From assembly GCA_964451375.1 (NCBI GenBank), contig CAYVIN010000031.1, positions 1 to 43,597 on the forward strand: a stretch of 43,597 nt of DNA, written 5' to 3'. This DNA comes from an uncultured Sulfuricella sp. GTDB taxonomy: Bacteria; Pseudomonadota; Gammaproteobacteria; Burkholderiales; Sulfuricellaceae. The position numbers were made by a program, and so were the translations under genes. Shown here in pieces: positions 1 to 40,532 of the stretch (positions are counted from its first letter, which is position 1; each line of letters opens with the position of its first letter). The notes under the pieces are model-generated. The model was not told the origin of the DNA. It did no database searches and saw nothing but the letters and a program-made list of their open reading frames with translations.

Positions 1-79
1 CAGCTAAAGCTGACCGGCTAAAGCCGGTGGTTTAAACCTTATGATGGATAATTAATCGTTGATCGTTGCAATCCCGGTA

Positions 80-373
80 TCACGCAGTATGCAGTTCGCG
101 CCGGATAGCCTCGCGCACCACATCGGACAAGGTCAAGCCCTGCACATATTGCTTGAGCGCCTCGTTCATCAGGGTTTGGTAATTTCCCCCGCTCATTTCG
201 GCGCGCGCCTTGAAAGCCGCCAACACCGCGCTATCCACGCGCATGGTGATACGGGTCTTGCCGCCTGATTCCGCCTGGAGCCGGGCCAATGCGGGGATTT
301 CACCCGCCGGCCTGGCGGCGGAAAAATCTGCGTCCTTGAATTTATCGTAGATCGGGTCAGAACTGTTGCTCAT
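80..373 (-). CDS. brnA: BrnA-type antitoxin (CopG/RHH-like, DUF4415)
   Basis: 97-aa ORF directly downstream of a DUF497/BrnT-like toxin ORF and overlapping it by 17 nt, the typical TA arrangement. Size and charge pattern fit BrnA. Confidence 0.6.
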   Translation of the reverse strand: MSNSSDPIYDKFKDADFSAARPAGEIPALARLQAESGGKTRITMRVDSAVLAAFKARAEMSGGNYQTLMNEALKQYVQGLTLSDVVREAIRRELHTA

Positions 374-632
374 AGCGCCTCCATTGCGGCTGGTTGGCCT
401 TCCAGGCGGAAATCAGGCGAATCCGTTCCCCGCGTAGCGTCCAGACCACCACCAGAACCCGGCCTTTCGCTCCCATGCTGAGGGAAACAAAGCGTCGCTC
501 GTCTTCTGCGTCCTCATCCTCGATAGTCAGGACATAAGGATCAAGCAATACCGGCTTCGCTTCGTCGAACGTCACGCCCTCGTGAACCAGCGGATTGCGG
601 GCGGCCTTGTCGGGATCGAATTCGATTTCCAT
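357..632 (-). CDS. brnT: BrnT-type ribonuclease toxin (DUF497)
   Basis: 91-aa ORF starting MEIEFDPDKAARNPLVHEGVTFDEA, which is the conserved BrnT/DUF497 N-terminal signature. Paired with the downstream antitoxin ORF. Confidence 0.7.
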   Translation of the reverse strand: MEIEFDPDKAARNPLVHEGVTFDEAKPVLLDPYVLTIEDEDAEDERRFVSLSMGAKGRVLVVVWTLRGERIRLISAWKANQPQWRRYEQQF

Positions 633-674
633 AAATTATTATATGCACAAACGTATGCGCCGGAAAAGAAAAAA

Positions 675-701
675 GGGGCGGAATTGCTTCCGCCCCTTTT
701 T
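675..701. terminator. Bidirectional rho-independent terminator hairpin (GGGGCGGAA-ttgc-TTCCGCCCC) flanked by A-run and T-run
   Basis: Perfect 9-bp stem read directly from the sequence, with 'aaaaaa' upstream and 'ttttt' downstream. A diverged second copy lies at 964-990. Confidence 0.6.
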
Positions 702-963
702 CAAAATCAACGCGAACGATGCGCTTCCTGCCGTCAGCGCATCCTACGGCCCTTGGCTTCGGAATTCATTTTTGCACAATAAATTGCTCCGACCCCATAT
801 TCCCACTTGCGAGAAGCGGGGTTTTGAGGTTGCTGCGCCCTACGCTTGCTGGGAAGGGTGTCAAACGTAAGGCCTGACCCCGTGGTTTGTTATCGGGATC
901 GAATTCGATTTCCATGAATCATCATATGCACAAACGCATGCACAAGAAAAGGCAAAAAAATAG

Positions 964-990
964 GGGTGGAATTGCTTCCGCCCCCTTTCA
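964..990 (-). terminator. Second copy of the terminator hairpin (GGGGTGGAA-ttgc-TTCCGCCCC), T-run on the minus strand
   Basis: Belongs to the duplicated approx. 200-bp unit. 'aaaaaaata' precedes it on the plus strand, so it gives a T-tract for minus-strand transcripts. Confidence 0.45.
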
Positions 991-1281
991 TAAACCTCCC
1001 TCTTCCGTACCATTCGGCGATGTGCGCGGACGATGCGCTTCCTTTCGTCAGCGCATTTACGGCCTTGTGGGACGAAGATTGAACGGTTCGACCTGCGTAC
1101 TTCCGGGGGGCGCGGCCTTCCCGTGACTGGCGGCAAAACCCGGTGTTTCTTTGCTTCAGAACGACGACAAAAACCGCGCTTAAGCCGCCGGACTTTTCTT
1201 TCACACCTGCCAGCATTCCGCACCCTCCCAAAAAAATCGGTCACCTTGTGAGTGGCCGGTAAGTGAGATTGGCTTCGGAAG

Positions 1282-1665
1282 TCATTTTTGCACAATAAAT
1301 TGCTCCGACCCCATATTCCAGAGAATTTCATGGCGGCTCGATAATATCCGGCAAGCCTCGCGCCACAGCCCCGCGTAAGCCCCAGCGGAGATCACCAACG
1401 GCAACGACTGGTTATAAGCACTGCTGTGCGGCGCAAGCAGCCACAAAAACCACAAGGCGCGCTGCCCATGCGACAACGGGACACAACGGAACAAGGTCGG
1501 ATCACGCGCCAGTAGATCGAGAATCTCCGTCTTGTGAGCGCGCAAAAAGGCCATCTGCACCTCCCCCGCTGCGGCGCGCGGCGCGCGAAAACGCAGCTTG
1601 TCGCCCTCGCACCAGAATTGCCAACCGGCGAAGATCAGGGAGAGGATTTCCTTTGAAAAAGTCAT
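1282..1665 (-). pseudogene. Truncated NRPS gene fragment: TubC-like N-terminal docking domain plus the start of a condensation domain (PLSHGQRALWF..AYNQ..RHEIL), ending inside the 50-bp repeat
   Basis: The residues EILSLIFAGWQFWCEGDKLRFRAPRAAAGEVQMAFLRAHKTEILDLL match the TubC_N docking consensus. The C-domain C1 motif follows. The frame then runs into repeat-derived sequence (NMGSEQFIVQK) and stops after 127 aa. Confidence 0.6.
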
Positions 1666-1912
1666 GCCGGTCGGCGCGGGTTATGCCGGATATCCGGACG
1701 ACGCCTGATTTCCCGGTGCATCGCATCGGGCGCAAGGTCGTGGTCATTCGGGCAAACCACTGCGCCATCATCCAACCACCCCGCAGATTCGGGACGCACA
1801 TTTTTCACCTGATTCATTCTCTTTCTTCCACTCTGAAACAACACCTAACCAAAACCGTTCTCACCCCGCCCTCTCACGGAGGACTACAACAACCTGCCAA
1901 GCGAATTTCGCG

Positions 1913-2524
1913 CTAAAAGTAGTTCGCCGAGAGCACCCCTTTAACCGATTCGGCACGATCATCGGAAAATCCGAAATACACCCGGACATCATGAGGGAAC
2001 GTAAACGCCGTATCAAAAAATCTCTCTATTACGCCTTCTTTCGTGCTGATTCGTCGCGGAGTTTTTCCGATGCAGATAAACATTTCCTTCTTATGTTTAC
2101 CTTCAACGCGTGTTTCCTTCGGCAGCGGAAGAATTTCCATCCCGTTTTTCTCGCAGAAATCCAATATTGCCGTCTTGTGTGTCCCGACCGGAACGTAGCG
2201 TCTAGCCAATCTGGAAATATCTGTTTCAACTGAGCTATTTATGAATTTTAAAGCCTCGATCAAGAAATTATGCGGCAGTTCGTCTGAATACGCCGGACTC
2301 ACCTGCAAAATAGCAAAAATGAAAACAACTGCGCTCATAAACGCGGAAACAGCGGCAGTAGCAGGCTGGCGTTCACGAAATTTAGCGGGCGCGTGGGCAC
2401 AGTTTGTATGCCCACCGTTGAGCGACCGGGTGGGCGCGATGAAACCGCCCCCACCTTCCCTGCTGCTGCTTGCAGCGGAATAACCCGACACTTCCCAACA
2501 TTTCCCGGTTTGAGACTCAAACAT
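1913..2524 (-). CDS. Hypothetical protein with N-terminal hydrophobic segment, in a locally low-GC (foreign-looking) segment; true start uncertain (possibly Met at approx. 2335)
   Basis: ORF whose codon usage is visibly more AT-rich than its neighbours (for example aaaaaatctctctattacgcc). It has a TM or signal-like stretch AAVSAFMSAVVFIFAILQVSPAYS. I recognise no family. Confidence 0.35.
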   Translation of the reverse strand: MFESQTGKCWEVSGYSAASSSREGGGGFIAPTRSLNGGHTNCAHAPAKFRERQPATAAVSAFMSAVVFIFAILQVSPAYSDELPHNFLIEALKFINSSVETDISRLARRYVPVGTHKTAILDFCEKNGMEILPLPKETRVEGKHKKEMFICIGKTPRRISTKEGVIERFFDTAFTFPHDVRVYFGFSDDRAESVKGVLSANYF

Positions 2525-2828
2525 GCGGCTCGCCTATCGGTTGTACCGCGAGGCGCATCCCCATCGCCTTGAGAATTGCAGAGAGCGTCTTCAGTTCGGG
2601 GTTTCCCCGTTCCGACAGGGTGCGATATAACGTATGAGCGTTTATTTCCGCCTGCCGGGCGACTTCCTGAACTCCGCCGTATGCCTTGCTGAGGCTGCGC
2701 AAGGCGAGCATCAAATCGACCTCATCGCCATCTTCCAGCACGGAATTCAAATATTCCGCAGCCAGCGCGGGATCGCTGCGAAACATTTTAATTGTCGCTT
2801 CTTCATGGGTTCGATGCGTTTCAGCCAT
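2517..2828 (-). CDS. Addiction-module antidote protein (HigA-like XRE HTH, 'probable addiction module antidote' family)
   Basis: 103 aa. It contains ..AEYLNSVLEDGDEVDLMLALRSLSKAYGG..INAHTLYRTLSERGNPELKTLSAILKAMGMRLAVQP, typical of the HI1420-type antidote family. Its start codon overlaps the stop of the upstream killer remnant (ATGGCTGA). Confidence 0.7.
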   Translation of the reverse strand: MAETHRTHEEATIKMFRSDPALAAEYLNSVLEDGDEVDLMLALRSLSKAYGGVQEVARQAEINAHTLYRTLSERGNPELKTLSAILKAMGMRLAVQPIGEPHV

Positions 2829-3015
2829 TTCGTTTCTCCCAGTCCTTCAGTAGCTCGATTGCACGGTCAATATCGCACACAAGACAACTGCTCAGAACCG
2901 CGCAATATGGCGCTATAGAAGCCCCTCTCTCGTGTGCTGTCGCGTAGGCGCGGGGAGAACACCGCCTGAGTTGTTGCCAACAAAGCTGATTTCACCATTA
3001 CGTTTTCCCTCCCCC
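2829..3015 (-). pseudogene. Remnant of the cognate RelE/ParE-like 'addiction module killer' gene: 5'-truncated and frame-disrupted
   Basis: The last reading frame before the antidote gives ..SCLVCDIDRAIELLKDWEKRNG*, which resembles killer-protein C-termini. Only about 185 bp exist between the antidote gene and the PKS stop at 3016. No intact ORF of about 100 aa is present. Confidence 0.45.
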
Positions 3016-6000
3016 TCACAATTCCCCCTCCAGATAATCCAGCCCTGCCGGGGCGCCGGGTTCCTGGGCGGTTGGTTCCAGCGAGGCGACGATGTGGGCG
3101 GCGAGTTTGTCGAGGTTACATTGGTCGATCAGATAGCCGACCGGAACGTTGACGGCGAAGCCGCGTTGCACGGCGACCGAGAGTTGCAGGGCGAGGAGCG
3201 AGTCCAAACCCATCCGCACCAGGGTTTGGGTGGTGTCGAGGCGTTCCGCGTCGTTGCGCAGGAGGATCACTGCAACAGCTTTGCGGAGGAATTTCAGGGT
3301 GACGGCAAGTTGTTCGGCTGGCGGTCTGGCGCGCAGTCCGGCGGCCATATCGACGATGGCCGGGGCGTTTGCGAGGGGGTGGGCGGCGAGGATCAGGCCG
3401 TCGAGAGCCAACACGGTTGTCCCTGTTGCGGCGGCGCGGATATGGATGGCGGCGCGATATCCGGCGCTGTCGGGCTGGAGGCTGGCTTCAAGAATCAGGG
3501 TGTCCGGGGGGAGCGGTCGCAATTCGGCGGCGCGCAGGCTGCGTACGCTGAACCGCGCCGGTTGGCCGCTTTGTAGGTGGATGACGGTGAATAACTGAAA
3601 GCCGGTTTCGAGCAATACGGCAAAGTCGGTCGGCGAGACGAAGTTGCGTTGGTTGATGTCGATAATCGCCGTGGCGCTTTGCGGGCCGATGCGTAATTGG
3701 TCGAGGAAGCGGTGGCGTTCGGTGTATTCAAAACCGGGGTTGCGCAGGGTGTCGTAAAAGCGCGCACCGTCGAGCAGTGGAACAGCCGCGTCGCCAGGCG
3801 TTCCATCCCCCTTTCCAGAGAGGGAACTAGCGCCCTCTTCACTCGCCGTGAAACCAGCCAAACGCATCCACGGACTTTCCGGGTCGCCGCTCTGGATATG
3901 CAGCAACCCTGCGCCGTCAGGGGCGAGAGTGGCGTGAAACAAGGTTCCGGCAGCGATATCCGCAACCAGCGGAGCGACCTCCAGGGCGTTGATCCGGGAC
4001 AAGCCGCTACGCGCCGCCGCAGCGAGGGCCAGCGTCACCGGGGCGCTGGCGAGCAGGATGTCCTGACCGTTCACTTTTAAGCCGCCCAACGGATGGGTGT
4101 TGGGCAATCCATAGCGGTTGGCGTAGTGGCGGCGCGGGTCGCCAGGCACAGGCTGAGGGGTCAGCAGGCCGCCGATGCCCGAACCCGTGGCGTTTTCGTC
4201 GCCGCCGTGGTTAGCGGGGGGCGGGTCGAGCCACAGGGCTTCGCGCTGGAAGCGATAGCCGGGGAACGCCACCCGGGTGGCGGGGCGCGCCGCGTGAAAC
4301 GCCGTCCAGTCAAAATCACAACCGGCTTCGTAAAGCGCCGCGACAGCCTGCATCAAGGCGGCGTTTTCCCCGCCGGGGCCGGATAACGAGGCGACCCAGC
4401 GCGCCGCACCGGCCTTCGGGTTAAGTCCCCCCATGCCGGTGAGGATGGATTTGGGGCCGATTTCCAGGCACACGGTATGGGGTTCGTCGAGGAGTTTTTC
4501 CAGCGCCGGGCCAAACCGCACTGCGCCGCGCAACTGGGCGCACCAGTAATCCGCCCCGGCCATGCGGGCGTCGCCCCATACGCCATCGAGAGTGGCGAGC
4601 AACGGCAGGCGCGGCGGCTGGTAGGCGACCTGCAACGCGGCGGCGCGAAAAGGGGCCAGCGCGGGTTCGAGCAGATGGGAATGGAAGGCGTGGGAAACCT
4701 CCAGCGGCACACAGAGGATGCCTTGTTCCTTGAGTTGTTGAGCGGCGCTCTGGAGATCGCCGAGTTGGCCCGACACCACGCTGCTGTGCGGGGCGTTGAC
4801 GGCGGCCAGGGAAAGGCGCGGCCAGAGGTCGCCGAGCAAACCGGGCAACGCCGCTTCACCGGCATTTACCGCCAGCATCCCGCCGCCGGCGGGGAGCGCC
4901 TGGATCAGTTCGCCGCGCCGCGCCACCAGACGTAGCGCGTCTTCCAGCGAAAACACCCCGGCCAGAGTGGCGGCGACGTATTCCCCGACGCTGTGGCCGA
5001 GCACTACCGCCGGTTCGATGCCCCAACTGCGCCACAATTGCGCCAGCGCGTATTCAAAGGCGAACAAACACGGCTGTGTCCAGCGGGTTTGGCTGATTTG
5101 GCCCGGCTCGTCGCTAAACATCACCTCCAGCAATTTTCCGCCGGCGTGTTTTTCGAAAATTGCCGCGCAACGCTCCAGTTCGGCGCGAAACTGCGGCTCG
5201 CTATGGTACAACTCGCGCCCCATGCCGGGATATTGCGAACCCTGCCCGGTGAACAGGAAAGCGATACGCGGCGAATAAAGAGACGGCGCAGCGCGGTGTT
5301 TTTTGCTTAAGTGGGCGCGGGCTTCGGCGATGCTCGCGGCGGCCACTGCGCGGCGCTCGCGGAAATGACTGCGGCCCCGGTTGGCGGCGCGGCACAAAGC
5401 GGGGAAATCCGCCTCTGCAACCCCGCTCAGATGGGCGGCGAGCGCGCCGCTCAGGTCTTCCAGCGCCTGCGGGGTTTTGGCGCTCAGCGTGAGCACCTGG
5501 CAGGGGCGTTCGGCTGCGTCACCGACGGGGGGCGGCGGGGCCTCGCTGATGAGCAGGTGGGCGTTGGTGCCGCCGATGCCGAAGGCGCTCACCCCGGCGG
5601 CGCGGGGAATGGTTTCGTCCCAGGGACGCGGCGCAGTGACGATGGACAGCGGCAGACGCGCCCAGTCCACGCGCGGATTGGGATGGCGAACATGGAGGCT
5701 GGGAGCCAGGGCGCGCTGACGCAGTTGCAGGCAGGCCTTGAGTAATCCGGTAATACCGGCGGCGGCTTCGAGGTGGCCCAGGTTGGATTTAAAGCTGCTG
5801 ATCAGCAGCGGCGCGCCACGTTTCACGCCATACACGGCGGCCAGCGCCTGGACTTCGATGGGGTCGCCGAGCGCCGTGCCGGTGCCGTGGGCTTCCACCA
5901 CGCCGATTTCAGCGGGACTCATATGCGCATCGGCGAGGGCCTGGCGGATCACCTCCTGCTGGGCCAGGCCGTTGGGTACGGTGAGACCGCTGGTGCATCC

Positions 6001-8436
6001 GTCGTGATTGACCGCCGAGCCGCGTATCACGGCGAGGATGGTGTCCCCATCGGCCTGCGCGTCGCCCAGGCGTTTGAGGATCAGCGCCGCGCCGCCTTCG
6101 GCGCGCACGTAACCGTCGGCCCCGGCGTCGAAGGTGCGGCAGCGCCCAGACAAGGAGAGGGCCTGACCACGCGCCAGGAAGATGCTGATTTCGCCGTTGA
6201 GCAACAGATTCACCCCGGCGGCCACCGCCACATTCACCTCACCCCGGCGCAGGCTCTGGCAGGCAAGATGCACCGCCACCAGCGACGACGAACAGGCAGT
6301 GTCCACCGCCAGACACGGCCCTTTCGCCCCGAGCGTGAAGGCGATGCGTCCGGCGGCGGTGCTGGCGGCGTTGCCGGTGGCGAAATAGCCGCCCAGATCG
6401 AGGCGCTGGCGCGGCGACAGGCGCTGCGCGTAATCGTTGCTGCTGATTCCGACGAATACCCCGGTGGGGCTGTCGAGCAGGCTGGAGGGGGCGATGCAGG
6501 CGTTTTCCAGGGCTTCCCAGGTCAATTCCAGCAACAGGCGTTGCTGCGGATCGAGGGCCAGGGCTTCGCGCGGCGAGATGCCGAAAAACTCGGCGTCGAA
6601 ACCTTTCACGTCGTCGAGAAACCCGCCGAAAGACGCGCGCCGCCGCGTTTCGGGACGGTCGTTGGGGGCCAGCGCGGTCACGTCCCAGCGCGACGCCGGG
6701 ACTTCGCTGACCTTGTCGCAACCTTCTGCGAGCGCCGCCCAGAAGCCCGCCGGCGTATCGATGCCGCCCGGCAACCGGCACCCCGCGCCGACGATGGCGA
6801 TAGGTTCTTCGCTCGCCCCGCGCGGCAACATCGGACACGGTGCGACGGACGGGTGATGCAGGCCGCCGATGGCCCGCGCCAGCCGCGCTGGGGTGGGATA
6901 GTCGAAAGGCAGGGTTTGCGGCAACGCCAGGTCGAGGCGTTTGGCGAGGTTATCCAGCAGCGCCACGCAACCCAGCGAAGTCATGCCGAGGTCGAAAAAA
7001 CCGCCTTCGGCGTCGAGAACATCGTTTTCCCCGAGGTTCAGCAAGGAGCGCATTTCGGCGAGGATCAGGGCAAGGATTTCCGCAGCGGCGGGTAACGAGG
7101 GGGATTCCTGCGCGGTTGCGACGCTCAACGCCGGCGCAATCCCCTCCCCTCCTATTGGCGCGCCGGAGAACCCGGCAACGGGTGCGCCTTCATGGAACAC
7201 CCCCAGATCGAGATCGTGGCCGCGCGCCACCAGTTGCGCCACCGCCAGTTGCACCTGGCGTAACACCGGGCGACCTTCGCGGTTGGTCGCGATAGCCACG
7301 GCGTCACTGCCGCGCAACGTGTCGCGCACGAATCCGCTGAGGAAATCGGCAGTCCCCAATTCGACGAAAGTGCGAATCCCGGATTCGGCAAGTTTTTCCA
7401 CGGTTTCACGAAACCGCACCGGGTGATGCCACTGGCGCACCAGCACTTCCCGTATCGCCGCCGGGTCGGCGGGGAACGGTGCGGCGCTGGCGCAACTCCA
7501 CGCCGCCAGACGCGGCTCATGAATCGCCACTGCCGCGTAAACCGCCGCCAGCGTCGCCGGACTCAGCGGAAAGGCGGGGGTGTGGGCGGGCAAGGTCAGA
7601 CCCGGTAATTCAAAGGCTTTTTCGCCGCGTTGGTTTATCGTCTGGCGCAATTCCTCCAGCGCCCCGGCGTCGCCCCATACCACGGTCTGTTGCGGGCAGT
7701 TGTCGAGAGCGACGAATACTTTCGGTTGGGGCTGGACAAGCAATGGATCGAGCACCGCGCGGGATGCCGCCGATACGGCCAGCATCCCGTGTTTGCCGCT
7801 TGCCGCCGCAGCCGGCGCGCCCTGGGCGAGCCGCGCGGCGATGGCGAGCACCGCGCCGGGGTCTTCCACCATTGCGGCGGCATGGAGCACCGCGTTTTCC
7901 CCGTAGCTGTGCCCCAGTAACGCAGCGGGACGTAAACCCAGCGCAGAAAACAACGCCCACATCGCGAGATCATTGAGCAGCAGGCCGTTCAGCGTAGCGC
8001 CCAACGCGTCGCCGGGCGGCGCGGGAAGCTGCGGATACCCGGCAAACCAGCGTTCCACGCAGGGAAACAGGGCGCGCAGATCAGCCGCCAGGGCGCCGGG
8101 TTTGGCCCCGAAACCGGGGAACAAAACTGCCGTCGGCGCTGCGCTCGACCAGCCATACCAGGCGCTGTTCGCCTGGGTAAAAGAGGGGGCGCTGTCGCTC
8201 TCCAGACGTTTCAGCGCGAAATCCAGCGCGCGCCGCAATTCGGCGGCATTTCCCGCCACCAGAGCGTAGCGGTGTTCCCGCAACGGCAAACCGGCCAGTT
8301 GATGCGCCAAGCCGCCAAGATCAGTCGTATCGGGATCAACCGCCAACAATATCGCCCGTAGCGCGGCGCGCGACTCGGCTGACCAGACCAGCAAATAACT
8401 ATCCCAAACGGGAAGACAAATATCGGGGGAATTCAT
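3016..8436 (-). CDS. Type I polyketide synthase, domain order AT(loading-like)-ACP-KS-AT-DH-like-ACP
   Basis: 1806 aa. GHSYGE (AT 1). LGMTSL (carrier). KS motifs DTACSSSLVAVHLAC, EAHGTGTALGDP and NLGHLEAAAG. AT 2 has FLFTGQGSQ, GHSVGE and AFHS. A hot-dog DH-like region has HPLGG. The C-terminal ACP is MGLDSLLALQL. Confidence 0.85.
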   Translation of the reverse strand: MNSPDICLPVWDSYLLVWSAESRAALRAILLAVDPDTTDLGGLAHQLAGLPLREHRYALVAGNAAELRRALDFALKRLESDSAPSFTQANSAWYGWSSAAPTAVLFPGFGAKPGALAADLRALFPCVERWFAGYPQLPAPPGDALGATLNGLLLNDLAMWALFSALGLRPAALLGHSYGENAVLHAAAMVEDPGAVLAIAARLAQGAPAAAASGKHGMLAVSAASRAVLDPLLVQPQPKVFVALDNCPQQTVVWGDAGALEELRQTINQRGEKAFELPGLTLPAHTPAFPLSPATLAAVYAAVAIHEPRLAAWSCASAAPFPADPAAIREVLVRQWHHPVRFRETVEKLAESGIRTFVELGTADFLSGFVRDTLRGSDAVAIATNREGRPVLRQVQLAVAQLVARGHDLDLGVFHEGAPVAGFSGAPIGGEGIAPALSVATAQESPSLPAAAEILALILAEMRSLLNLGENDVLDAEGGFFDLGMTSLGCVALLDNLAKRLDLALPQTLPFDYPTPARLARAIGGLHHPSVAPCPMLPRGASEEPIAIVGAGCRLPGGIDTPAGFWAALAEGCDKVSEVPASRWDVTALAPNDRPETRRRASFGGFLDDVKGFDAEFFGISPREALALDPQQRLLLELTWEALENACIAPSSLLDSPTGVFVGISSNDYAQRLSPRQRLDLGGYFATGNAASTAAGRIAFTLGAKGPCLAVDTACSSSLVAVHLACQSLRRGEVNVAVAAGVNLLLNGEISIFLARGQALSLSGRCRTFDAGADGYVRAEGGAALILKRLGDAQADGDTILAVIRGSAVNHDGCTSGLTVPNGLAQQEVIRQALADAHMSPAEIGVVEAHGTGTALGDPIEVQALAAVYGVKRGAPLLISSFKSNLGHLEAAAGITGLLKACLQLRQRALAPSLHVRHPNPRVDWARLPLSIVTAPRPWDETIPRAAGVSAFGIGGTNAHLLISEAPPPPVGDAAERPCQVLTLSAKTPQALEDLSGALAAHLSGVAEADFPALCRAANRGRSHFRERRAVAAASIAEARAHLSKKHRAAPSLYSPRIAFLFTGQGSQYPGMGRELYHSEPQFRAELERCAAIFEKHAGGKLLEVMFSDEPGQISQTRWTQPCLFAFEYALAQLWRSWGIEPAVVLGHSVGEYVAATLAGVFSLEDALRLVARRGELIQALPAGGGMLAVNAGEAALPGLLGDLWPRLSLAAVNAPHSSVVSGQLGDLQSAAQQLKEQGILCVPLEVSHAFHSHLLEPALAPFRAAALQVAYQPPRLPLLATLDGVWGDARMAGADYWCAQLRGAVRFGPALEKLLDEPHTVCLEIGPKSILTGMGGLNPKAGAARWVASLSGPGGENAALMQAVAALYEAGCDFDWTAFHAARPATRVAFPGYRFQREALWLDPPPANHGGDENATGSGIGGLLTPQPVPGDPRRHYANRYGLPNTHPLGGLKVNGQDILLASAPVTLALAAAARSGLSRINALEVAPLVADIAAGTLFHATLAPDGAGLLHIQSGDPESPWMRLAGFTASEEGASSLSGKGDGTPGDAAVPLLDGARFYDTLRNPGFEYTERHRFLDQLRIGPQSATAIIDINQRNFVSPTDFAVLLETGFQLFTVIHLQSGQPARFSVRSLRAAELRPLPPDTLILEASLQPDSAGYRAAIHIRAAATGTTVLALDGLILAAHPLANAPAIVDMAAGLRARPPAEQLAVTLKFLRKAVAVILLRNDAERLDTTQTLVRMGLDSLLALQLSVAVQRGFAVNVPVGYLIDQCNLDKLAAHIVASLEPTAQEPGAPAGLDYLEGEL

Positions 8437-13826: not shown

Positions 13827-16800
13827 TCAGCACACCAGCGTCGCGCCCGCACCAACCTGAGCGACAGCACTGATCCATTTCCCTTCCCGGTTAACCCACA
13901 CCTGGTAGGTTTTTCCACCGTCGTCCGGCGGCGCAGTCACCAGGGTGCGCCAGCCTCCCGCGTCGGCCTGCCAGGCGCTGCTCAGCCAGGCGTCGGGACG
14001 CCCCCGCAGGCCGCTTCCGGCGGCTTTGGAAGCGGCTTCCTTGGCGCACCACAGGCGCGCCAGCCCGACTTTTTCCAGTGTCGCACGTTCGGCGGGAGCG
14101 ACGATCTGCGCCTCCAGATGCGCCAACCCGGCAAAAGCCTGTTCCGGCTCGACATCGATACCCAGCATTTCTCCGCCTGCGCCGACCAGGGCCATCGCGC
14201 AGCCGTCGCAATGGGAGATGCTCAACGCTGCACTTTTACCGCCCGGCAGGATCGCTTGCGGCGCACCGCCGGGTGCGTTACTCACCGTCACGTCGGCGTA
14301 ATCGCTGTCCCGGTCGCCTTGGGCGCGTAACCAGGCAAGCAGCGCCGATTTGCCGGCAATCCGCCCGAGCAGCCAGGAAACCCGCCGCGCCGGGGCCGCC
14401 GTCGCCAGATCGCGCCACACTTGCCGTTCCGCCGCACTCAGCACGGCGCGCGCCGCGACTTCCAGCCACACCCCGCTGCCCGCGCTGAGCAAGCCGGTCG
14501 GCAGGTCGTCGAGCGTGGCCCGCCACAGTCCGGGCTGCGGCTCATCGAGGCGCGCCAGAATGTCGCCCTCAACCTGCGGATGAAGAATTTTGTGGAACGT
14601 CAGTCCCCAGTCGAAAATCCGCTGTTGCACCCCCGAGGCGCGATACAGCAGGCGTCCGCCGGCGTCGATAAAATCCACTCCGCCTTTGACATCCTGCCCG
14701 GATTGTACACAGGAAGCGCGCACCACGATATCTTTGCCAGGTGCCGCCGGGGGGGCAAAAAACTCAATTCGATCAATGGATACCGGAAAAATACCGACAT
14801 TCGGGCGGGTTTGCAGAGCGAATAACGCGGTGAGCTGGCCGATGGTGTCCAGCAACGTTGCCGGGGTGGCCAATTGATCGGGCCGGACAGCCCCCGCCAG
14901 TACGTCGTCGAACGGCGCAACCACGCCTTCCGCAACCATCCCGGCAGGGGTGTAATAGCGCACCCGGCGCATCGCGATGAAAGCGGGGCCGTGAAACAGG
15001 GCGTGATTAAAAACGTCGAGCGGCAACGTCAAAGGCAGCGCCGGAGCGGAAATTTCGGGCAGCGGCGCGGGCGCGCCGGGATAAGCCGCAGCGATTTCGA
15101 CGCCGCTGGAAAACAGCAACTCGCCCGCCGCGCCGCAGAGCCGCACTTGCCACACGCCGGGGGCGCTGCGCCGTGCTTCCAGAAGCAATTCGCGGCGCTC
15201 GGCGGCGACCTCCACCCACTGCATTCCCCGGCACTCGACAAGCGCCGTCACCACCCCGCCGCCATTGGCGCGCAAGGCGGCGGCAGCGCACATTTCGCAG
15301 GAAAACACCAGCGGTGAGACGGGCAGGCCAATCAAGCCGATATCCTTGCGGGTCAACGGCCTGCCAAAGGTGTGCTGGCGCAAAAAACCGTGCCGGGCCA
15401 GATCGAGGGTAATGCGGCAACGCCAGGTTTGGCCGTCCGCAGTAATATCGCGCGGCGCGTAAAAAACCAGCGGATCGTGGTTGCTGCGTTGCGCCATACC
15501 TGGCTCGCCGCCCTCCGGCGCAGGTTGCCCGGTGCTTTTCAGGCGCGCCACGGCGGCTTCCATGACGCGGGTCTGGGTGGCGAGAAAATCGCGCATCAGC
15601 GCGAAATGGCGATGCACCAGCAGCGCTGCGTCCGGGGAGTTTGCGACGGCGGGCGGCGACACGGCGGACGTAAAGGCCGCCCTATCCAGCGCCTGCCAGC
15701 CGGCAAAAAGCGGCTGGAGCTGGTTGGCCTTACCCATCACAAACAATTGCCCGAGGGTGCGCAGCAGCGCTGCGTAACCCGAGCCGTTTTCCCCGTCGCA
15801 GACCAGCGCATGATGCGGCTGGCCGCGCAGGGTGTCGCGCACGAAGCCGCTGAGCCGCCCCGCCGGGCCGACATCGACGAATAACCGGATGCCGTCTTCA
15901 TGCAGACGTTGGGTGGTTTCGCGAAAGCGCACCGTGCGATTCCATTGCGCAGCCGCAGCGGCGCGCCGCCCCGCGCCATCCGCCGGAAAGGGGGCGGCGC
16001 TGGCGGCGCTGTACAAGCGGCTGCGCAACGGTTTGTCGTCGATTTCCGCATATCCGGCGGCAAATCCGGCGGCGACTTCTTCGAACAACGGGGTATGGAA
16101 TGGCTGGTCGAACTGCAAACGGGTGCATATCACGCCCAGCCCGGCCAATTCCGTGAGCAGCGTCGCGCTCGCTTCGGGAACCAGGTGAACCAGCAATTGC
16201 GCGGGGCAGTTGTCGATGGAGACATAACCCCGTCCCGCCAGCAACGCGAGGATTTGCGGGCGCAGGTCGGGATTGGGCAGGGTCAGCGCGACATTGCAAC
16301 CGTGCGCGGTGGCGGGCTGGTCGGTGTCGGCAAGCCAGGGACGGATGAAATCCAGGCCGGCGAGGATTTCCTGATGATGCCCCTCAAGTCCGTAATAGGC
16401 CGCCAGGAGCGCCGCATTTTCGCCGTTGCTGTGGCCGACCACCGCATCGGGAGATGCGCCGCAGCGCTCCAGCATTTCCGCCAGCGCCAGCCCGCCGACC
16501 AGGCAGGATTGCCCACCGTCGGCCAGCGCAAAGAGGCGCTCGGCTGCGGCGGCGCGTCCCGCAGGATCGGGCGGCGCTTCGTAAAGGGTTTCCGAAGGAC
16601 GCGGTGACTCCGGGGTCTGTCCATCAAGCAGGTCGTACCAATAACGCACACTGTCGAGATACAGCGCGCTGTCGCGCAACATCCCGAAATATTGGGAACC
16701 CTGGCCGGGAAAAATGAACGCCAGCCCGCCACTTTCCGCCGCGCCCGTGAAATTCCCCCAGATACCACGCGGATGCTGGTAGCGCGTCAGTTTGGGGTCG

Positions 16801-17603
16801 TTCAAGGCGGCCCCGAGCAAGGTGAGTTTGTGGGACAAATCGCCAACATCGGTAGCGACCAGCGCGGCGCGCACCGGGCCGCACGCCGAGTTTGCACATT
16901 CCGCCGCCAGATCGACGAGGCGTTGCGCCGTATCAACCCGCGCCGCCAGCGCTTTCACCCGCTCAATCAGGGCGGCGCGGCTATCCGCCGCCACCACGAT
17001 CAATTCATGGGAACGCCGCCGCTGGAGGCGCGGACGCGGCGCGTCCGGCGCTGCTTCCGCGATGCGCAGGGGGAACGCCGCACCCGGCGGATGTAATTGA
17101 AAGCTTCGTCCCTCGTCGCGATACCCCCACACCCAGGGGATCCGTTGGGCGTCCGGCCCCGCCGCAATACGGAAGCGGTCATGCACCATCCACACGGCGA
17201 GCAGGAAATCGCGGCACGAAAAACCGCCCGGCAAAGCAAGCGGGGAAGCGGAAAAATCCACCCTCACGGCGCACGGGTCGCTGTCCGCCGCGCCCAGCGC
17301 GACCGCCCAGGCAATGTCGCCGACATCTCCGGCGAGCAGGGTCGCCAACCCCTGAGTCGCGCGTTCCAGCGCTGTTTGCAGCGCACCGGCGAGACTCGCG
17401 TCGTCGCACTCCAGCAGCACTGCGCCGCTGAAATCGCCGAGTTCCGTCAGGCAGACGTTGCGCCGGGCGGTGTCGGGCGCTCCCCCGCCATCTCCCCCGG
17501 CGAGCCGGTCGAGCGCTTCGTCCAGCCCGCCCTGCGGCCCGCGCAGGGACTGCCCGAGCAGCCTTGCCGCGCCGTCAGCCGGGGAAAACGCCGGAACCTT
17601 CAC
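13827..17603 (-). CDS. Multidomain synthase subunit: N-terminal region of unknown function, acyltransferase, PKS-type dehydratase (hot-dog), C-terminal 4'-phosphopantetheinyl transferase
   Basis: 1258 aa. AT motifs FIFPGQGSQYFGM, GHSNGE and FHTPLF. DH-like region HTFGRPL..LPVSP plus a DxxxQ motif (LLDTIGQL). The C-terminus carries PPTase motifs GIDVEPEQ and WCAKEAASKAAG. The GTG start lies 2 nt after the RND gene stop. Confidence 0.8.
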   Translation of the reverse strand: MKVPAFSPADGAARLLGQSLRGPQGGLDEALDRLAGGDGGGAPDTARRNVCLTELGDFSGAVLLECDDASLAGALQTALERATQGLATLLAGDVGDIAWAVALGAADSDPCAVRVDFSASPLALPGGFSCRDFLLAVWMVHDRFRIAAGPDAQRIPWVWGYRDEGRSFQLHPPGAAFPLRIAEAAPDAPRPRLQRRRSHELIVVAADSRAALIERVKALAARVDTAQRLVDLAAECANSACGPVRAALVATDVGDLSHKLTLLGAALNDPKLTRYQHPRGIWGNFTGAAESGGLAFIFPGQGSQYFGMLRDSALYLDSVRYWYDLLDGQTPESPRPSETLYEAPPDPAGRAAAAERLFALADGGQSCLVGGLALAEMLERCGASPDAVVGHSNGENAALLAAYYGLEGHHQEILAGLDFIRPWLADTDQPATAHGCNVALTLPNPDLRPQILALLAGRGYVSIDNCPAQLLVHLVPEASATLLTELAGLGVICTRLQFDQPFHTPLFEEVAAGFAAGYAEIDDKPLRSRLYSAASAAPFPADGAGRRAAAAAQWNRTVRFRETTQRLHEDGIRLFVDVGPAGRLSGFVRDTLRGQPHHALVCDGENGSGYAALLRTLGQLFVMGKANQLQPLFAGWQALDRAAFTSAVSPPAVANSPDAALLVHRHFALMRDFLATQTRVMEAAVARLKSTGQPAPEGGEPGMAQRSNHDPLVFYAPRDITADGQTWRCRITLDLARHGFLRQHTFGRPLTRKDIGLIGLPVSPLVFSCEMCAAAALRANGGGVVTALVECRGMQWVEVAAERRELLLEARRSAPGVWQVRLCGAAGELLFSSGVEIAAAYPGAPAPLPEISAPALPLTLPLDVFNHALFHGPAFIAMRRVRYYTPAGMVAEGVVAPFDDVLAGAVRPDQLATPATLLDTIGQLTALFALQTRPNVGIFPVSIDRIEFFAPPAAPGKDIVVRASCVQSGQDVKGGVDFIDAGGRLLYRASGVQQRIFDWGLTFHKILHPQVEGDILARLDEPQPGLWRATLDDLPTGLLSAGSGVWLEVAARAVLSAAERQVWRDLATAAPARRVSWLLGRIAGKSALLAWLRAQGDRDSDYADVTVSNAPGGAPQAILPGGKSAALSISHCDGCAMALVGAGGEMLGIDVEPEQAFAGLAHLEAQIVAPAERATLEKVGLARLWCAKEAASKAAGSGLRGRPDAWLSSAWQADAGGWRTLVTAPPDDGGKTYQVWVNREGKWISAVAQVGAGATLVC

Positions 17604-17605
17604 GA

Positions 17606-27200: not shown

Positions 27201-30200
27201 GGCTGGCCGTCAGCGTTGCCGTACACCGGCAGCGCCGCCGCGCGGAAGGCGACGCCGGCAATGCGCGTCGCCAGGGTTTCCTGGGCGCTCGCCACATAGG
27301 GCGAATGGAACGCCCCGCTCACCGGGAGGCGGCGGAAGTTGAGCGCGGCGGCCTGAAGCGCCGTTTCGGCGGCCTCGATATCCGCCACGCTGCCGGACAG
27401 CACCACCTGGGCCGGCGCATTGTGGTTGGCGATCACCACTTTGGCGTCGAGACCGGCCAGCACGGCGGTCACCGCGCTACGCTCGGCAAGCACCGCCGTC
27501 ATTGCGCCTGCGCCGCACGAGTGCATTGCCGCACCGCGTTGCAGGGATAACCCAAACAGGGTGGCGAGGTCATAACAACCGGCGGCGTATAACGCGGTGA
27601 ATTCGCCATACGAATGCCCGGCCAGGAAATCCGCATGGATACCCGCTGTTTCGAGCACCCGCAGCCAGGCGGCGGAGATTGCGCCGATGGCGATTTGCGC
27701 CGCCCGCGTATCGGTGAGGCGCGCCGAAAAACGTTGTTCGAGTTCCGCATTAAACGCGGCGGGCGGGTAAATCAGGCGATCCAGGCCGATGGCGGCGGGG
27801 TGCGCGAGGGCGTAAGTCTGGACGGCTTCTTCCACCACCCTGCGGAAAGGTTCGAGATAAACGGCGGCCTCGCGCCCCATGTGGGGACGCTGGCTGCCCT
27901 GGCCGGGAAACAGGAACACCAGACGGCCTTCACGTGCGGCGCGGCACGGGCCGAACCAGACGTTGGGGATTTGTTCCGCACTGCCTTTTTCCAGCGCACC
28001 TGCGACATTTTCCAGGGAACGCAGCAGTTCCGCGCGGTCGCCGGCAGCCAGCGCCAGCGCCCACTCGGCGCGGGGCTGTTCGGCGACGCGCCGCGCAGCG
28101 GCGGCGGCGATGGCCGGCAGCGCCAGTTCGGCGCGCGCCGCGAGGCGTTGCAATTTGCGGACTTCACCCAACAACGCAGCGGCGTCGGCGGCGCTCGCGA
28201 CAAACGGGATGCGCGGCCATTCCGCCGCACCCAGCGGCGCAGCTGCGCCATTTTGATATTCCTCCAGCACGGCATGGGCGTTGGTGCCGCCGAAGCCGAA
28301 GGCGCTCACCCCGGCGCGGCGCGGCGCATCGACCGGGCGGAACCAGGGCAATGGGGCGGCGGCGAGGAACACCGGACAATCCGCCTGGGTCAGCGGGGCA
28401 ATGGGGTTGTCCACCGCCGCCTGCGGCGGCAGGGTCTGGTGATACAGCGCCAGGGCGGCCTTGGAAATCCCGGCCAGTCCGGCGGCGGTCTTGATATGGC
28501 CGAGTTGGGCTTTGGCCGAGCCGAGCAATACGCTTTCGGGATGCGCGGCGTGGGCCAGGAGTTCGCTGGTAATCGTCTCCAGTTCGGCGCGGTCGCCGAC
28601 CTGGGTGCCGGTGCCGTGGGCTTCGTAGAGGCCGATGCGGGATATCGGGAACCCGGCGATGTCGTAGGCGCGCCGCACCGCGCGGCGCTGCCCGAGGGGA
28701 CGCGGGGCGGTCATGCCGAGACTGCGCCCGTCGCTGGAGCCGCCCACTGCGCGGATCACCGCATAAATCCGTTCGCCGGCCCGTTCGGCATCGGCCAATG
28801 GACGCAATACCAGCCCCACCACCCCTTCCCCCAATACGGTGCCGTCGGCGGCGCTGTCGAAGGCGCGAATTCTGCCGGTTTTGGATAACGCCCCGACAGT
28901 GCTGAAATTGACGAACTGGTCGGGCGTCAGGGATACGTCGGCCCCCGCCACCACGGCGGCTTTGCAACGCCCGGCGGCGAGTTCGGCGGTGGCGATGGCA
29001 AGCGCCGATAGGCTGGAGGCGCAGGCGGAATCCACCGCCAGATTGGGGCCGCCCAGATCGAGACGGTTGGCGATGCGCCCGGCGGTCACCGAATTCAAAC
29101 TGCCGGGAAAGGTTTCTTCGGTGCGTTTCGGCACCCGTTCGCGGAGCCGTTCGACGCTGTCCGGGTCGAGCAGGAACGGTGCGCAGGCCGACATCACCAG
29201 TTTGTTGCCGTTGAATCCGGCCACGTCGGAACACGCGGCGATCACTGCGGTGTCCTCGCGGGGGAAACCGTTTCCGTCGTTCCAGCCGGCGTCGTCGAGG
29301 GCGCGCCGCGCCACGTCGAGGGCGATGAGCTGGGCGGGCGAGATGCTGGTGACGGCTTTGGGCGGCACTCCGTAACGTAGCGGTTCAAAAATGAAGGGCT
29401 GAATCAACCCGCCCCAGCGCCCGCTACAGGCTTCCGCACCCTTCTGCGGATTTTCCTCGAAGAGCAGCCGCCAATCCCAGCGGTCGCGGGGAATTTCGTC
29501 GATGTGTACTTCCTTACTCAACAAACACCGCCAGAATTCGCCGGGGTCGCCGCCGCCGGGGGTTTGCATGGCGATGCCGACAATCGCGATATCGAGCGGT
29601 TCGGCAGCCAGCCGCAGCGGCGCGTCCGCTTCGGCGTAGGTCGTCAGCAGCGCCGCCCCGCCGACGCTGACGCGTTCATGGAGTTGCCCCAGGGTGGTTT
29701 GCTCGCACAGCAGGGTAGCCACCTCGCCGGCCATGTACATGCCATCCGCCAATTGGCGTTCCGCCGGGACTTCCAGCAACTGCCCGGCGCTTCGCTCCAA
29801 GCCCTTGGAGGCCAGGCGCAGGCGGCCCAGCGCCAGCTCGTCAAGTTCGGCGCGGAACGTTTCCGCCGGGGTGGCGGCGGCGGCGAGGCGCACCCGCGCC
29901 GCCGACCAGACGTGCGCAAAAGGAGTGTCCAGGCAGCGCACCGCGTGGCCGCGCCCGCTTTCCAGATTGACGGTGCGGCAGCTTTCCAGCACAGCCTGAC
30001 GGAAGGTCTCGGTGATTGCGCCGCTTTCCACCGCTTCGTCGCAGGTGAGATAGGCGGTGCCCATCAGGACGCCGGCCTTGACGCCGCGTTCGATCAGCGG
30101 GGCGAGCACCGCCATCGCCAGCATCGCTGAGATATCGTCATGGATGCCGCCGGCCAGCAGCACATGGAGTTTTTCATAGCCGCAGGCGGGCGGGGTGGCG

Positions 30201-40516: not shown

Positions 40517-40532
40517 TGTCTATTACAACGAG

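What the first reader, a model, noticed from the sequence alone, without database searches (positions are those of the whole stretch)
1282..1665. Decapitated NRPS: TubC-type docking domain and condensation-domain start truncated at a repeat junction
The 127-aa ORF has a textbook NRPS N-terminal docking domain and the C1 motif of a condensation domain. It then runs at ..RHEIL into the 50-bp repeat and stops. Between it and the upstream PKS (stop at 3016) lie a low-GC ORF and TA debris. This suggests that mobile and TA DNA inserted between PKS and NRPS, that the NRPS was deleted, and that the hybrid assembly line may now be non-functional or rewired.
Basis: partly seen in the sequence, partly recalled or inferred. 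Interest (0 to 1): 0.6.

Follow-up and report, generated by a model that had tools for sequence, protein, structure and literature searches.

The report
Truncated NRPS gene stump beside PKS
A peptide-synthetase gene that should follow a polyketide-synthase gene has lost all but its first 115 codons, which are now fused to toxin-antitoxin-associated DNA, so this copy of the gene cluster is most likely broken; this is ordinary gene decay.

Summary
ORF 1282-1665 (-) is the first 115 codons of a roughly 1,370-aa NRPS (docking domain-C-A-T-TE), followed by 12 foreign codons and a stop.

- **Intact versions exist.** P0122 is 92% identical over residues 1-115. L004 carries a whole orthologue followed by an O-methyltransferase gene.
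- **Where homology ends.** DNA homology stops at 1320/1321, inside the C2 motif (RHEIL|RARF). This is the edge of a 51-nt repeat (753-803 and 1269-1319, 50 of 51 identical).
- **What survives.** Residues 1-60 model confidently as an α-β-β-α-α β-hairpin docking domain. The catalytic HHxxxDG motif and the A, T and TE domains are absent from the whole contig.
- **Ancestral order.** Five relatives have the NRPS gene after the PKS gene, three of them with the O-methyltransferase gene next. In two, the PKS stop overlaps the NRPS start.

- **Insert between PKS and NRPS (1868-2952).** It sits in a variable spot. One relative carries a different TA pair there, ahead of an NRPS gene that reads well past the break.
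- **The truncation.** It is one of several deletion-like scars in brnTA- and REP-like-rich DNA that ends in an IS200/IS605-type end at the contig edge.

Still open: whether the NRPS body was deleted or merely displaced beyond the contig end, and what the 51-nt repeat is. The junction rests on one assembly. Low novelty.

The parts
1321..1665 (-). NRPS-derived part of the ORF: 115 codons. These comprise a β-hairpin docking domain (about residues 1-60, 1486-1665) and the first 55 residues of a condensation domain, through C1 and into C2 (RHEIL).
   Evidence: tblastn of the intact NRPS P0122 matches residues 1-115 at 92% identity. blastn gives 87.6% identity to L004 over 1321-1867. Pfam hits are, the AF2 model and Foldseek.
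1282..1320 (-). Foreign tail: 12 codons (WNMGSEQFIVQK) plus a TGA stop, supplied by the 51-nt repeat. Position 1320 is 1 nt of unassigned origin at the junction.
   Evidence: The three-way DNA alignment with the intact genes L004 and L002 loses homology after ...CATGAAATTCTC. The same tail, NMGSEQFIVQK*, ends ORF 766-915.
1269..1319 (.). 51-nt repeat, copy B, abutting the NRPS break point.
   Evidence: the repeat finder family D2, 98% identity. There were 0 chance matches in 100 shuffles.
753..803 (.). 51-nt repeat, copy A. It is followed on its right (804-889) by 86 nt of unrelated sequence and then by a brnT 5' stub.
890..1268 (-). Rest of unit B. It holds a brnT 5' stub (890-915, 8-9 codons), the brnT upstream region with a G+C-rich hairpin followed by a T run that looks like a terminator (about 958-988), a REP-like hairpin (1025-1056), and about 210 nt of extra sequence.
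   Evidence: Unit B is 85-91% identical block by block to unit A. It is 84% identical to the region upstream of brnT in L015.
607..752 (-). Rest of unit A: the upstream region of the intact brnT, with a terminator-like hairpin (670-701) and a REP-like hairpin (711-742).
80..632 (-). Intact brnT (357-632) and brnA (80-373) toxin-antitoxin pair.
   Evidence: Pfam BrnT_toxin at 69.6 bits and BrnA_antitoxin at 51 bits. The pair is 95.5% identical in DNA to a brnTA cassette in L015.
1..56 (.). IS200/IS605-type left end, cut by the contig edge.
   Evidence: It is 92.6% identical over 54 nt to a Methylomagnum plasmid segment lying 34 nt from an IS200/IS605 tnpA gene. It is 87% identical to segments of several other plasmids.
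1666..1867 (-). Conserved leader upstream of the NRPS start, retained in this strain.
   Evidence: It aligns with L004 370-567 as part of the 87.6% match.
1868..2952 (-). Strain-specific insert between PKS and NRPS. It holds a 203-aa ORF of unknown function (1913-2524, about 45% GC), a HigA-type antitoxin (2517-2828), and no more than 124 nt where the toxin gene should be.
   Evidence: Homology to L004 ends at 1867 and homology to L003 ends at 2953. The 203-aa ORF matched no family.
3016..8436 (-). Upstream partner PKS (AT-ACP-KS-AT-DH-ACP, 1806 aa). The reading frame is intact and it ends in the conserved docking tail ...GLDYLEGEL.
   Evidence: Pfam hits are. Orthologues are 90% and 67% identical. 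The C-terminal (W/Y/F)(V/L/I)EGE(L/I) motif occurs in all 13 orthologues examined.

Best explanation
ORF 1282-1665 is the stump of a single-module NRPS gene (β-hairpin docking domain-C-A-T-TE, about 1,370 aa). In relatives this gene immediately follows the PKS gene and receives its chain through a docking pair: the PKS tail ...(W/Y/F)(V/L/I)EGE(L/I) and the NRPS N-terminal docking domain.

In this genome an illegitimate recombination or deletion joined codon 115/116, inside condensation motif C2, to a fragment of toxin-antitoxin-associated DNA. That fragment supplies 12 codons and a stop.

The stump keeps a probably foldable docking domain. It lacks the catalytic HHxxxDG motif and the adenylation, carrier and thioesterase domains. 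The O-methyltransferase gene found next to the NRPS in three relatives is also missing. As a result the PKS has no cognate acceptor or release domain at this locus, and the pathway is most likely dead here (inferred).

The break is one of several similar scars in a 3-kb patchwork:
- a brnT stub fused to unrelated DNA at 889/890;
- an antitoxin whose toxin gene is missing, next to the PKS stop;
- an IS200/IS605-type end at the contig edge.

The pattern fits serial deletion in mobile, TA-rich DNA. On this reading the 51-nt repeat is the overlap between two old, diverged copies of one brnTA-upstream segment, with copy B cut at the point where it was joined to the NRPS.

What is shown: the truncation, its exact position, the ancestral gene order and the fold of the retained domain. 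What is inferred: the deletion mechanism, loss of product and recency of the event.
For: - **Identity of the stump.** Pfam finds TubC_N plus the first 54 profile positions of Condensation. An exhaustive phmmer search finds P0122, a 1367-aa protein matching residues 1-116 of the query to its own residues 1-116 at 91% identity.
- **Position of the break.** DNA homology to the intact gene in L004 covers 1321-1867 and stops at the repeat edge.
- **What is missing.** tblastn of P0122 and of the L004 O-methyltransferase against the whole window finds only NRPS residues 1-115.
- **Ancestral order.**
  - An ENA contig has the same gene order as the window (AT/PPTase, ABC, Band_7, DUF697, PKS, NRPS, OMT), and the PKS stop overlaps the NRPS start.
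  - L017 has PKS, NRPS and OMT.
  - L016 has PKS then NRPS.
  - L002 has PKS, a TA pair, then an NRPS gene that reads past the break for 404 codons to the contig end.
- **Fold.** AF2 gives pLDDT 88-96 for residues 1-60, with an α-β-β-α-α order. Eight of the nine best Foldseek PDB hits are NRPS/PKS N-terminal docking domains: 8aqq, 6ewt, 6ews, 6ewu, 6ewv, 5t81, 5t7z and 2jug. The topology matches the description in PMC6195595.
- **Partner tail.** It is conserved in all 13 orthologues examined.
- **Recency.** dN/dS of the stump against L004 is 0.17. For the PKS against L003 it is 0.18, at similar dS.
- **Neighbouring scars.**
Against: - The junction at 1320/1321 is seen only in this one NCBI contig. 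Four independent Logan assemblies of sibling runs all stop at window 1446, in DNA coding the conserved C1 motif, so none spans the junction.
- The contig ends 1.3 kb past the junction, in an IS end. A displaced NRPS body beyond it cannot be excluded.
- The 51-nt repeat is 98% identical, while the rest of units A and B is 85-91% identical. That is slightly odd for a passive overlap. It could mean the 51 nt is a functional end or a coding 3' end kept by selection.
- No progenitor of the segment was found in any collection.
- Loss of product was not tested.
Confidence: 0.6

Rival explanations
1. Interruption, not deletion. A composite mobile segment (brnTA units plus an IS200/IS605 element) was inserted into the NRPS gene at codon 116. 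The remaining 1,250 codons and the O-methyltransferase gene lie intact beyond the contig end.
For: The contig ends inside an IS-type end only 1.3 kb from the junction. Assemblies typically break at repeated IS copies.
Against: A search of 5.8 billion protein clusters with the intact orthologue P0122 returned no second large protein of 85% identity or more from NCBI or from the four Logan runs. P0122 and P0271 are each single-member clusters. Short fragments would have ranked below the 120 hits listed, so this is moderate evidence only. The segment itself is a patchwork of truncated pieces rather than one clean element. Either way the gene is inactivated.
Confidence: 0.15
2. A mobile element with a defined terminus. 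The 51-nt repeat (reading 5'-GGAATATGGGGTCGGAGC... on the minus strand) would be the functional end of an uncharacterised brnTA-carrying element. That element would have inserted twice: once into the NRPS gene and once into a previous copy of itself.
For: Both copies of the repeat end exactly where unrelated DNA begins, at 803/804 and 1319/1320. The 51 nt are better conserved (98%) than the rest of the units (85-91%). The sequence contains GGGGTCGG, reminiscent of the starts of Tn3-family inverted repeats (from memory).
Against: - There is no inverted partner copy anywhere in the 43.6-kb window.
- The two flanks show no target duplication and no common target.
- The shared GGAATAT lies ahead of the GGGG, which does not fit a Tn3-type end.
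- No GTTRRRY integron core site is present.
- No significant hairpin was found (z = -0.9 and -1.25).
- No copy was found in the genome, metagenome, viral or plasmid collections.
- An end point for copy B at the NRPS junction is expected anyway if the junction is a deletion break point.
Confidence: 0.15
3. Assembly chimera. The contig joins reads from different strains or loci, and no genome carries the truncated gene.
For: The source looks like a metagenome bin. Four Logan assemblies break at 1446, which indicates that a second, similar NRPS sequence is present in the same samples.
Against: De Bruijn chimeras form at shared k-mers. At 1320/1321 the intact NRPS sequence and the repeat share at most 1-2 nt. 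A strain switch within the shared stretch around 1446 would still leave a truncated gene in one of the strains.
Confidence: 0.05
4. A functional stand-alone docking protein. The short ORF would be a selected product, for example a cap or regulator of the PKS tail, and not a pseudogene.
For: The docking domain, its conserved 200-nt upstream leader and the PKS tail are all intact. dN/dS is low at 0.17.
Against: - The low dN/dS is measured against a lineage in which the gene is whole, and it equals that of the PKS. It therefore reflects history before the break.
- The ORF is a singleton cluster among 15 billion proteins.
- Short homologues are fragments of varied length with no common end.
- About 55 residues of a half-made C domain and a foreign tail model poorly (pLDDT 31-72).
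Confidence: 0.04

Closest known systems
β-hairpin (TubC/EpoB/Kj12/AerJ-type) N-terminal docking domains of NRPS and PKS-NRPS subunits (Pfam PF18563; PDB 2JUG, 5T81, 6EWS-6EWV, 8AQQ)
   Same: N-terminal position directly ahead of a condensation domain, and an α1-β1-β2-α2-α3 topology. The best structural match is 8aqq_A (rmsd 1.4 Å over 52 columns, 38% identity). The upstream partner ends in a short conserved acidic tail.
   Different: Here the domain is attached to only 55 residues of its C domain, so it has nothing to deliver the chain to. Binding to the PKS tail, and whether the domain is monomeric or dimeric, were not tested.
Intact orthologous NRPS (P0122, 1367 aa; P0271 on L004, 1368 aa) in the conserved PKS-NRPS-O-methyltransferase cassette
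   Same: 88-92% identical over the first 115 residues. Same upstream leader, same PKS partner and same wider gene order (AT/PPTase, ABC, Band_7, DUF697, PKS).
   Different: The window lacks residues 116 to about 1367, which hold the HHxxxDG motif and the A, T and TE domains. It also lacks the O-methyltransferase gene.
Pseudogenised or truncated megasynthase genes in decaying biosynthetic gene clusters
   Same: A large modular gene cut by recombination with mobile or TA-rich DNA, leaving a short ORF that is still called as a gene.
   Different: Nothing essential. The particular feature here is that the surviving piece is exactly the inter-subunit docking module.
REP (repetitive extragenic palindrome) elements and IS200/IS605 ends
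   Same: The hairpins at 711-742 and 1025-1056 sit just after stop codons. They carry a GTAG or GTAA head followed by an 8-bp palindrome. An IS200/IS605-type left end lies at 1-56.
   Different: No RAYT or tnpA gene lies in the window. Family membership was judged by eye and from one plasmid match only. These elements flank the break but are not at it.

Membership tests
β-hairpin docking domain (TubC_N, PF18563) | Matches the family HMM at or above the gathering score | tested here: met
   26.6 bits against a cutoff of 26, residues 16-52. The margin is narrow. PF18563 is also precomputed for this protein in the database.
β-hairpin docking domain (TubC_N, PF18563) | α1-β1-β2-α2-α3 fold of about 60 residues (as described in PMC6195595) | tested here: met
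   The AF2 model gives H3-12, E16-20, E23-27, H35-43 and H45-54, with pLDDT 88-96. Eight of the nine best Foldseek hits are docking domains, and the top hit has TM-score 0.79 normalised to the target. Foldseek E-values are weak (0.014 or higher) because the domain is small.
β-hairpin docking domain (TubC_N, PF18563) | Lies at the N-terminus of a subunit, directly before a C or Cy domain | tested here: met
   The C1 motif follows at residues 62-75. The full orthologues have the docking domain followed by C-A-T-TE.
β-hairpin docking domain (TubC_N, PF18563) | Binds the C-terminal docking peptide of the upstream subunit | not testable with these tools
   Only indirect evidence: all 13 PKS orthologues end in (W/Y/F)(V/L/I)EGE(L/I).
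NRPS condensation domain (PF00668) | Full domain of about 450 residues scoring above the gathering threshold | tested here: not met
   Only profile positions 5-58 of 456 match, at 21 bits against a cutoff of 30.6.
NRPS condensation domain (PF00668) | Catalytic HHxxxDG (C3) motif | tested here: not met
   P0122 has HHIVCDAWS about 200 residues in. The window ORF ends at residue 127 and leaves NRPS sequence at residue 115.
Complete NRPS module (C-A-T-TE) | Adenylation, carrier and thioesterase domains present | tested here: not met
   tblastn of P0122 against the whole window matches only residues 1-115.
Type II TA system BrnT/BrnA (80-632) | Adjacent toxin and antitoxin genes matching both family HMMs | tested here: met
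   BrnT_toxin at 69.6 bits and BrnA_antitoxin at 51 bits, with the two genes overlapping.
HI1419/HI1420 (HigBA-like) TA system (2517-3015) | Toxin gene immediately upstream of the dnstrm_HI1420 antitoxin | tested here: not met
   The antitoxin is intact at 58.6 bits. Only 187 nt lie upstream, of which 63 nt are conserved PKS-flanking sequence. Three-frame translations hold only stop-interrupted pieces, and the best 37-aa piece matched no Pfam family.
Transposon or IS terminal inverted repeat, or integron attC, as the identity of the 51-nt repeat | An inverted partner copy, a target-site duplication, or R''/R' core sites (RYYYAAC...GTTRRRY) | tested here: not met
   Only two copies exist, both direct. 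The flanks share nothing. No core sites were seen on reading the sequence. No copies were found elsewhere.
IS200/IS605 family element (window 1-56) | A left end with a subterminal hairpin next to a tnpA gene | tested here: inconclusive
   The segment is 92.6% identical to a plasmid segment 34 nt from an annotated IS200/IS605 tnpA. A hairpin ACCGGC/GCCGGT is predicted, z = -2.3. Any tnpA gene would lie off the contig. In a second plasmid the match lies between IS66 and IS110 genes.

The most novel reading that the evidence does not exclude
The gap between the PKS stop and the NRPS start in this lineage is a recurrent landing site for toxin-antitoxin cassettes. Three related genomes carry three different inserts there, whereas more distant relatives have overlapping stop and start codons. 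The truncated ORF would be expressed from its retained leader as a free docking domain that occupies the conserved PKS tail. On this reading, TA modules are being recruited inside an assembly-line operon, and a natural 'docking decoy' exists.
Probability: 0.1. Interest if true: 0.5.

Novelty: new member of a known kind. Interest (0 to 1): 0.2.

Why it matters
- **Genome mining.** This cluster would be scored as a hybrid PKS-NRPS because a docking and condensation hit is present. In fact it lacks every catalytic NRPS domain, so no hybrid product should be expected from this strain. Intact versions are available in relatives (P0122 and the L004 locus).
- **Docking code.** The comparison exposes a well-conserved docking pair: a PKS tail (W/Y/F)(V/L/I)EGE(L/I) and a β-hairpin domain. 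The pair recurs across distantly related lineages (Azospirillum, Vicinamibacterales and others) and could be used for assembly-line engineering.
- **Otherwise.** The finding is routine gene decay.

Tried and rejected
- **Exact-protein look-ups.** The 127-aa ORF, BrnT and P0122 gave no contigs.
- **Word-indexed homology search with the stump.** It found only itself. The exhaustive search was needed to find relatives.
- **Exact-pattern scans for the 51-nt repeat.** Genome, metagenome and viral collections all gave zero hits. A blastn search against plasmids found only a brnA-like segment and the IS end.
- **Scan for the shared brnT start.** It returned brnTA loci only 69-74% identical, with unrelated upstream DNA. 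The progenitor of units A and B was therefore not found.
- **Genome scan with P0122.** It gave only relatives of 42% identity or less. The genomes carrying P0122 and this window do not appear to be among the GTDB representatives searched.
- **Rfam on 1-3300.** Nothing reached a gathering score.
- **Promoter and terminator scan.** Uninformative.
- **Toxin remnant.** The 37-aa piece matched no Pfam family. Its resemblance to HigB C-termini is from memory only.
- **The 203-aa ORF.** No Pfam, NCBIfam or PHROGs match.
- **Tn3-type inverted repeat and integron attC readings of the repeat.** Both were considered and rejected, as set out in the membership rows.

Full report
**Observation**

The window is a whole 43,597-bp NCBI contig. 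ORF 1282-1665 on the minus strand encodes 127 aa.
- Pfam finds TubC_N (PF18563) at residues 16-52, scoring 26.6 bits against a cutoff of 26.
- Pfam also finds the first 54 profile positions of the 456-position Condensation model, at 21 bits, below its cutoff.
- The last 12 codons and the stop lie in a 51-nt direct repeat. The copies are 753-803 and 1269-1319, 50 of 51 identical.
- The 35-nt core of the repeat never recurs in 100 shuffles.

**It is a stump, not a small protein**

- The word-indexed search found only the ORF itself.
- An exhaustive phmmer search of 1.84 billion representatives found 2,334 relatives.
- The best relative is P0122, 1367 aa. It matches residues 1-116 of the query to its own residues 1-116 at 91% identity, then continues RARFGERDGE... 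into a full C-A-T-TE module.
- P0271 is a second intact orthologue of 1368 aa. It lies on Logan contig L004 and is followed by an O-methyltransferase gene.
- blastn aligns window 1321-1867 with L004 912-370 at 87.6% identity.
- In a three-way alignment with L004 and L002, homology ends after ...CGCCATGAAATTCTC. The intact genes read CGCGC(C/T)CGTTT (RARF) there, and the window reads TGGAATATGGGGTCGG.
- The break is therefore at 1320/1321, one nucleotide from the repeat edge. It falls inside condensation motif C2 (motif names are from my own knowledge).
- tblastn of P0122 and of the L004 methyltransferase against the whole window finds only residues 1-115, at 92% identity.
- Short homologues in the library (113-285 aa) end at many different places. 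Several have frameshift-like tails, and none shares this tail.

**The retained domain**

An AlphaFold2 model built on 24 homologues gives pLDDT 88-96 for residues 1-60. The order is helix 3-12, strands 16-20 and 23-27, then helices 35-43 and 45-54. The remainder models poorly, at pLDDT 31-72.

Foldseek against the PDB puts NRPS/PKS docking domains in eight of the nine best places:
- AerJ β-hairpin docking domain 8aqq (rmsd 1.4 Å, 38% identity);
- the Kj12 docking-domain entries 6ewt, 6ews, 6ewu and 6ewv (the last a Kj12C NDD/Kj12B CDD complex);
- EpoB 5t81 and 5t7z;
- TubC 2jug.

E-values are modest because the domain is small. The topology is the α1-β1-β2-α2-α3 fold described for this class in PMC6195595.

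The partner is also in place. The PKS at 3016-8436 (AT-ACP-KS-AT-DH-ACP) ends ...PAGLDYLEGEL. All 13 orthologues examined end in (W/Y/F)(V/L/I)EGE(L/I).

**Ancestral arrangement**

| Relative | Arrangement |
|---|---|
| ENA contig (ERZ1426829), same gene order as the window | AT/PPTase, small ORF, ABC, Band_7, DUF697, PKS, NRPS, O-methyltransferase; successive stops and starts overlap |
| Vicinamibacterales MAG (L017) | PKS, NRPS, O-methyltransferase; PKS stop overlaps NRPS start |
| Azospirillum sp. (L016) | PKS, a 205-nt gap, NRPS; preceded by the same PfaA-like megasynthase as window 24284-31705 |
| L002 (PKS 67% identical) | PKS, TumE toxin plus an HTH protein, then an NRPS gene reading through RHEILRARF for at least 404 codons |
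| L003 and L004 (PKS 90% identical, same sample) | Homology to the window ends 63 nt after the PKS stop, at window 2953, and resumes at window 1867; different DNA lies between |

Window 1868-2952 is therefore a strain-specific insert in a variable spot. It holds a HigA-type antitoxin, a 203-aa ORF of about 45% GC with no family match, and no room for the toxin gene. The L002 case shows that an insert at this spot does not inactivate the NRPS.

**The DNA that replaced the NRPS body**

Reading the minus strand from the junction, the order is:
1. The 51-nt repeat.
2. About 210 nt.
3. A hairpin with a GTAA head (1025-1056).
4. A G+C-rich hairpin followed by a T run, which looks like a terminator.
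5. The first 8-9 codons of brnT (915-890).
6. 86 unrelated nt.
7. The 51-nt repeat again.
8. A GTAG-headed hairpin (711-742).
9. A second terminator-like hairpin.
10. Intact brnT and brnA (632-80).
11. From 56 to 1, a sequence 92.6% identical to a plasmid segment that lies 34 nt from an IS200/IS605 tnpA gene.

The two units are 85-91% identical to each other except for the 51 nt, which are 98% identical.

A brnTA cassette 95.5% identical in DNA lies in a chromosomal context on Logan contig L015. The same GTAG/ATAG-headed hairpins flank it, directly after the stop codons. A neighbouring hairpin there has a different stem but nearly the same loop, GACGNNAGGA. That pattern is REP-like (by eye, from my knowledge of REP anatomy).

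The 51-nt sequence itself has no hit in the genome, metagenome, viral or plasmid collections. It has no inverted copy and no significant hairpin.

**Mechanism**

The simplest reading is serial illegitimate deletion in TA-rich, mobile DNA. Three joints have the same character: a gene cut at an arbitrary internal point and fused to unrelated sequence.
- The NRPS at codon 115/116.
- brnT at codon 8/9.
- The toxin gene next to the PKS flank.

On this view the 51-nt repeat is the overlap between two diverged copies of one brnTA-upstream segment. That segment may include the last codons of an upstream gene ending ...NMGSEQFIVQK. Copy B ends where it was joined to the NRPS.

I cannot exclude that the 51 nt is the defined end of an uncharacterised element (rival, 0.15). 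I also cannot exclude that the NRPS body survives beyond the IS at the contig end (rival, 0.15).

The stump's divergence from L004 (dS 0.33, dN/dS 0.17) matches that of the PKS from L003 (dS 0.28, dN/dS 0.18). There is no sign of relaxed constraint, so the break is probably recent relative to the split between these lineages.

**Caveat on the assembly**

Four Logan assemblies of sibling runs carry the PKS, antitoxin and 203-aa ORF region at 100% identity. All of them stop at window 1446, in DNA encoding the conserved C1 motif. This indicates that a second, similar NRPS sequence is present in those samples. It also means the junction at 1320 rests on the NCBI contig alone. A k-mer chimera is unlikely at that point, because the two sides share no sequence.

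**Consequence (inferred)**

The PKS reading frame is intact and its docking tail is conserved. Its acceptor, however, lacks HHxxxDG and the A, T and TE domains, and no thioesterase or condensation domain was found among the other large ORFs scanned. The hybrid product is most likely not made from this locus.

A free docking domain could in principle still bind the PKS tail. Nothing supports selection for that: the ORF is a singleton among 15 billion proteins.

**Verdict**

This is a real and precisely mapped truncation of an NRPS gene. It is a new instance of a well-known kind of event, and interest is low.

Noticed in passing
window 1-56: The contig ends in a sequence 87-93% identical to short segments of several plasmids. 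In a Methylomagnum plasmid the segment lies 34 nt from an IS200/IS605 tnpA gene. It is probably the left end of an IS copy, which would explain why the contig breaks here.
   Followed up: partly
window 711-742 and 1025-1056; L015 10566-10593 and 10633-10658: These are REP-like hairpins placed just after stop codons. Each has a GTAG, ATAG or GTAA head and an 8-bp stem. The stem differs between copies (GATGCGCT/AGCGCATC against GTTGGGCT/AGCCCAAC) while the 10-nt loop GACGNNAGGA is kept. The stem covariation suggests a selected structure.
   Followed up: partly
window 1868-2952; L002 13610-14454; L003 5553-6310 with L004 1-369: The gap between the PKS and NRPS genes holds three different inserts in three related genomes. 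The window has a HigA-type antitoxin plus a 203-aa ORF. L002 has a TumE toxin plus an HTH protein. L003 has an open-ended ORF rich in Thr-Pro repeats. More distant relatives have overlapping stop and start codons there.
   Followed up: partly
C-termini of the PKS at window 3016-3045 and of 12 orthologues: Every orthologous PKS ends in (W/Y/F)(V/L/I)EGE(L/I). This is presumably the docking peptide for the β-hairpin domain. It is conserved in orthologues from Azospirillum, Vicinamibacterales and Blastocatellia genomes and from several unnamed metagenome contigs.
   Followed up: partly
window 1446 (ends of L001, L012, L013 and L014): Four independent Logan assemblies of sibling sequencing runs all stop at the same base, inside DNA coding the conserved C1 motif. 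This implies that a second NRPS sharing that k-mer is present in the samples.
   Followed up: partly
protein P0273 (JGI, 1422 aa): This homologue begins with the PKS carrier-domain end (...GFLIDQCSLEQL...) and runs through a linker directly into the C1 motif, without a docking domain. It may be a natural PKS-NRPS fusion variant of the same cassette, or a partial gene call.
   Followed up: no
window 1776-1821 and L015 6270-6315: A 46-nt stretch of the conserved leader upstream of the NRPS start is 87% identical to an intergenic stretch downstream of fpg on L015. It is possibly another dispersed short repeat.
   Followed up: no
window 13827-31705: The wider cluster holds a 2473-aa PfaA-like megasynthase (NMO/ER-KS-AT-ACP-KR), a 1258-aa AT plus phosphopantetheinyl-transferase protein, an RND efflux trio and a glycosyltransferase-like gene. 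A similar PfaA-like gene precedes the PKS-NRPS pair in an Azospirillum genome (L016).
   Followed up: partly
window 37985-43546: This stretch carries a phosphoribulokinase gene (37985-38860), a DDE transposase with a DUF772 domain (39079-40446) and an AbiEii-type toxin (42647-43546). The far end of the contig is therefore also rich in mobile and defence genes.
   Followed up: no
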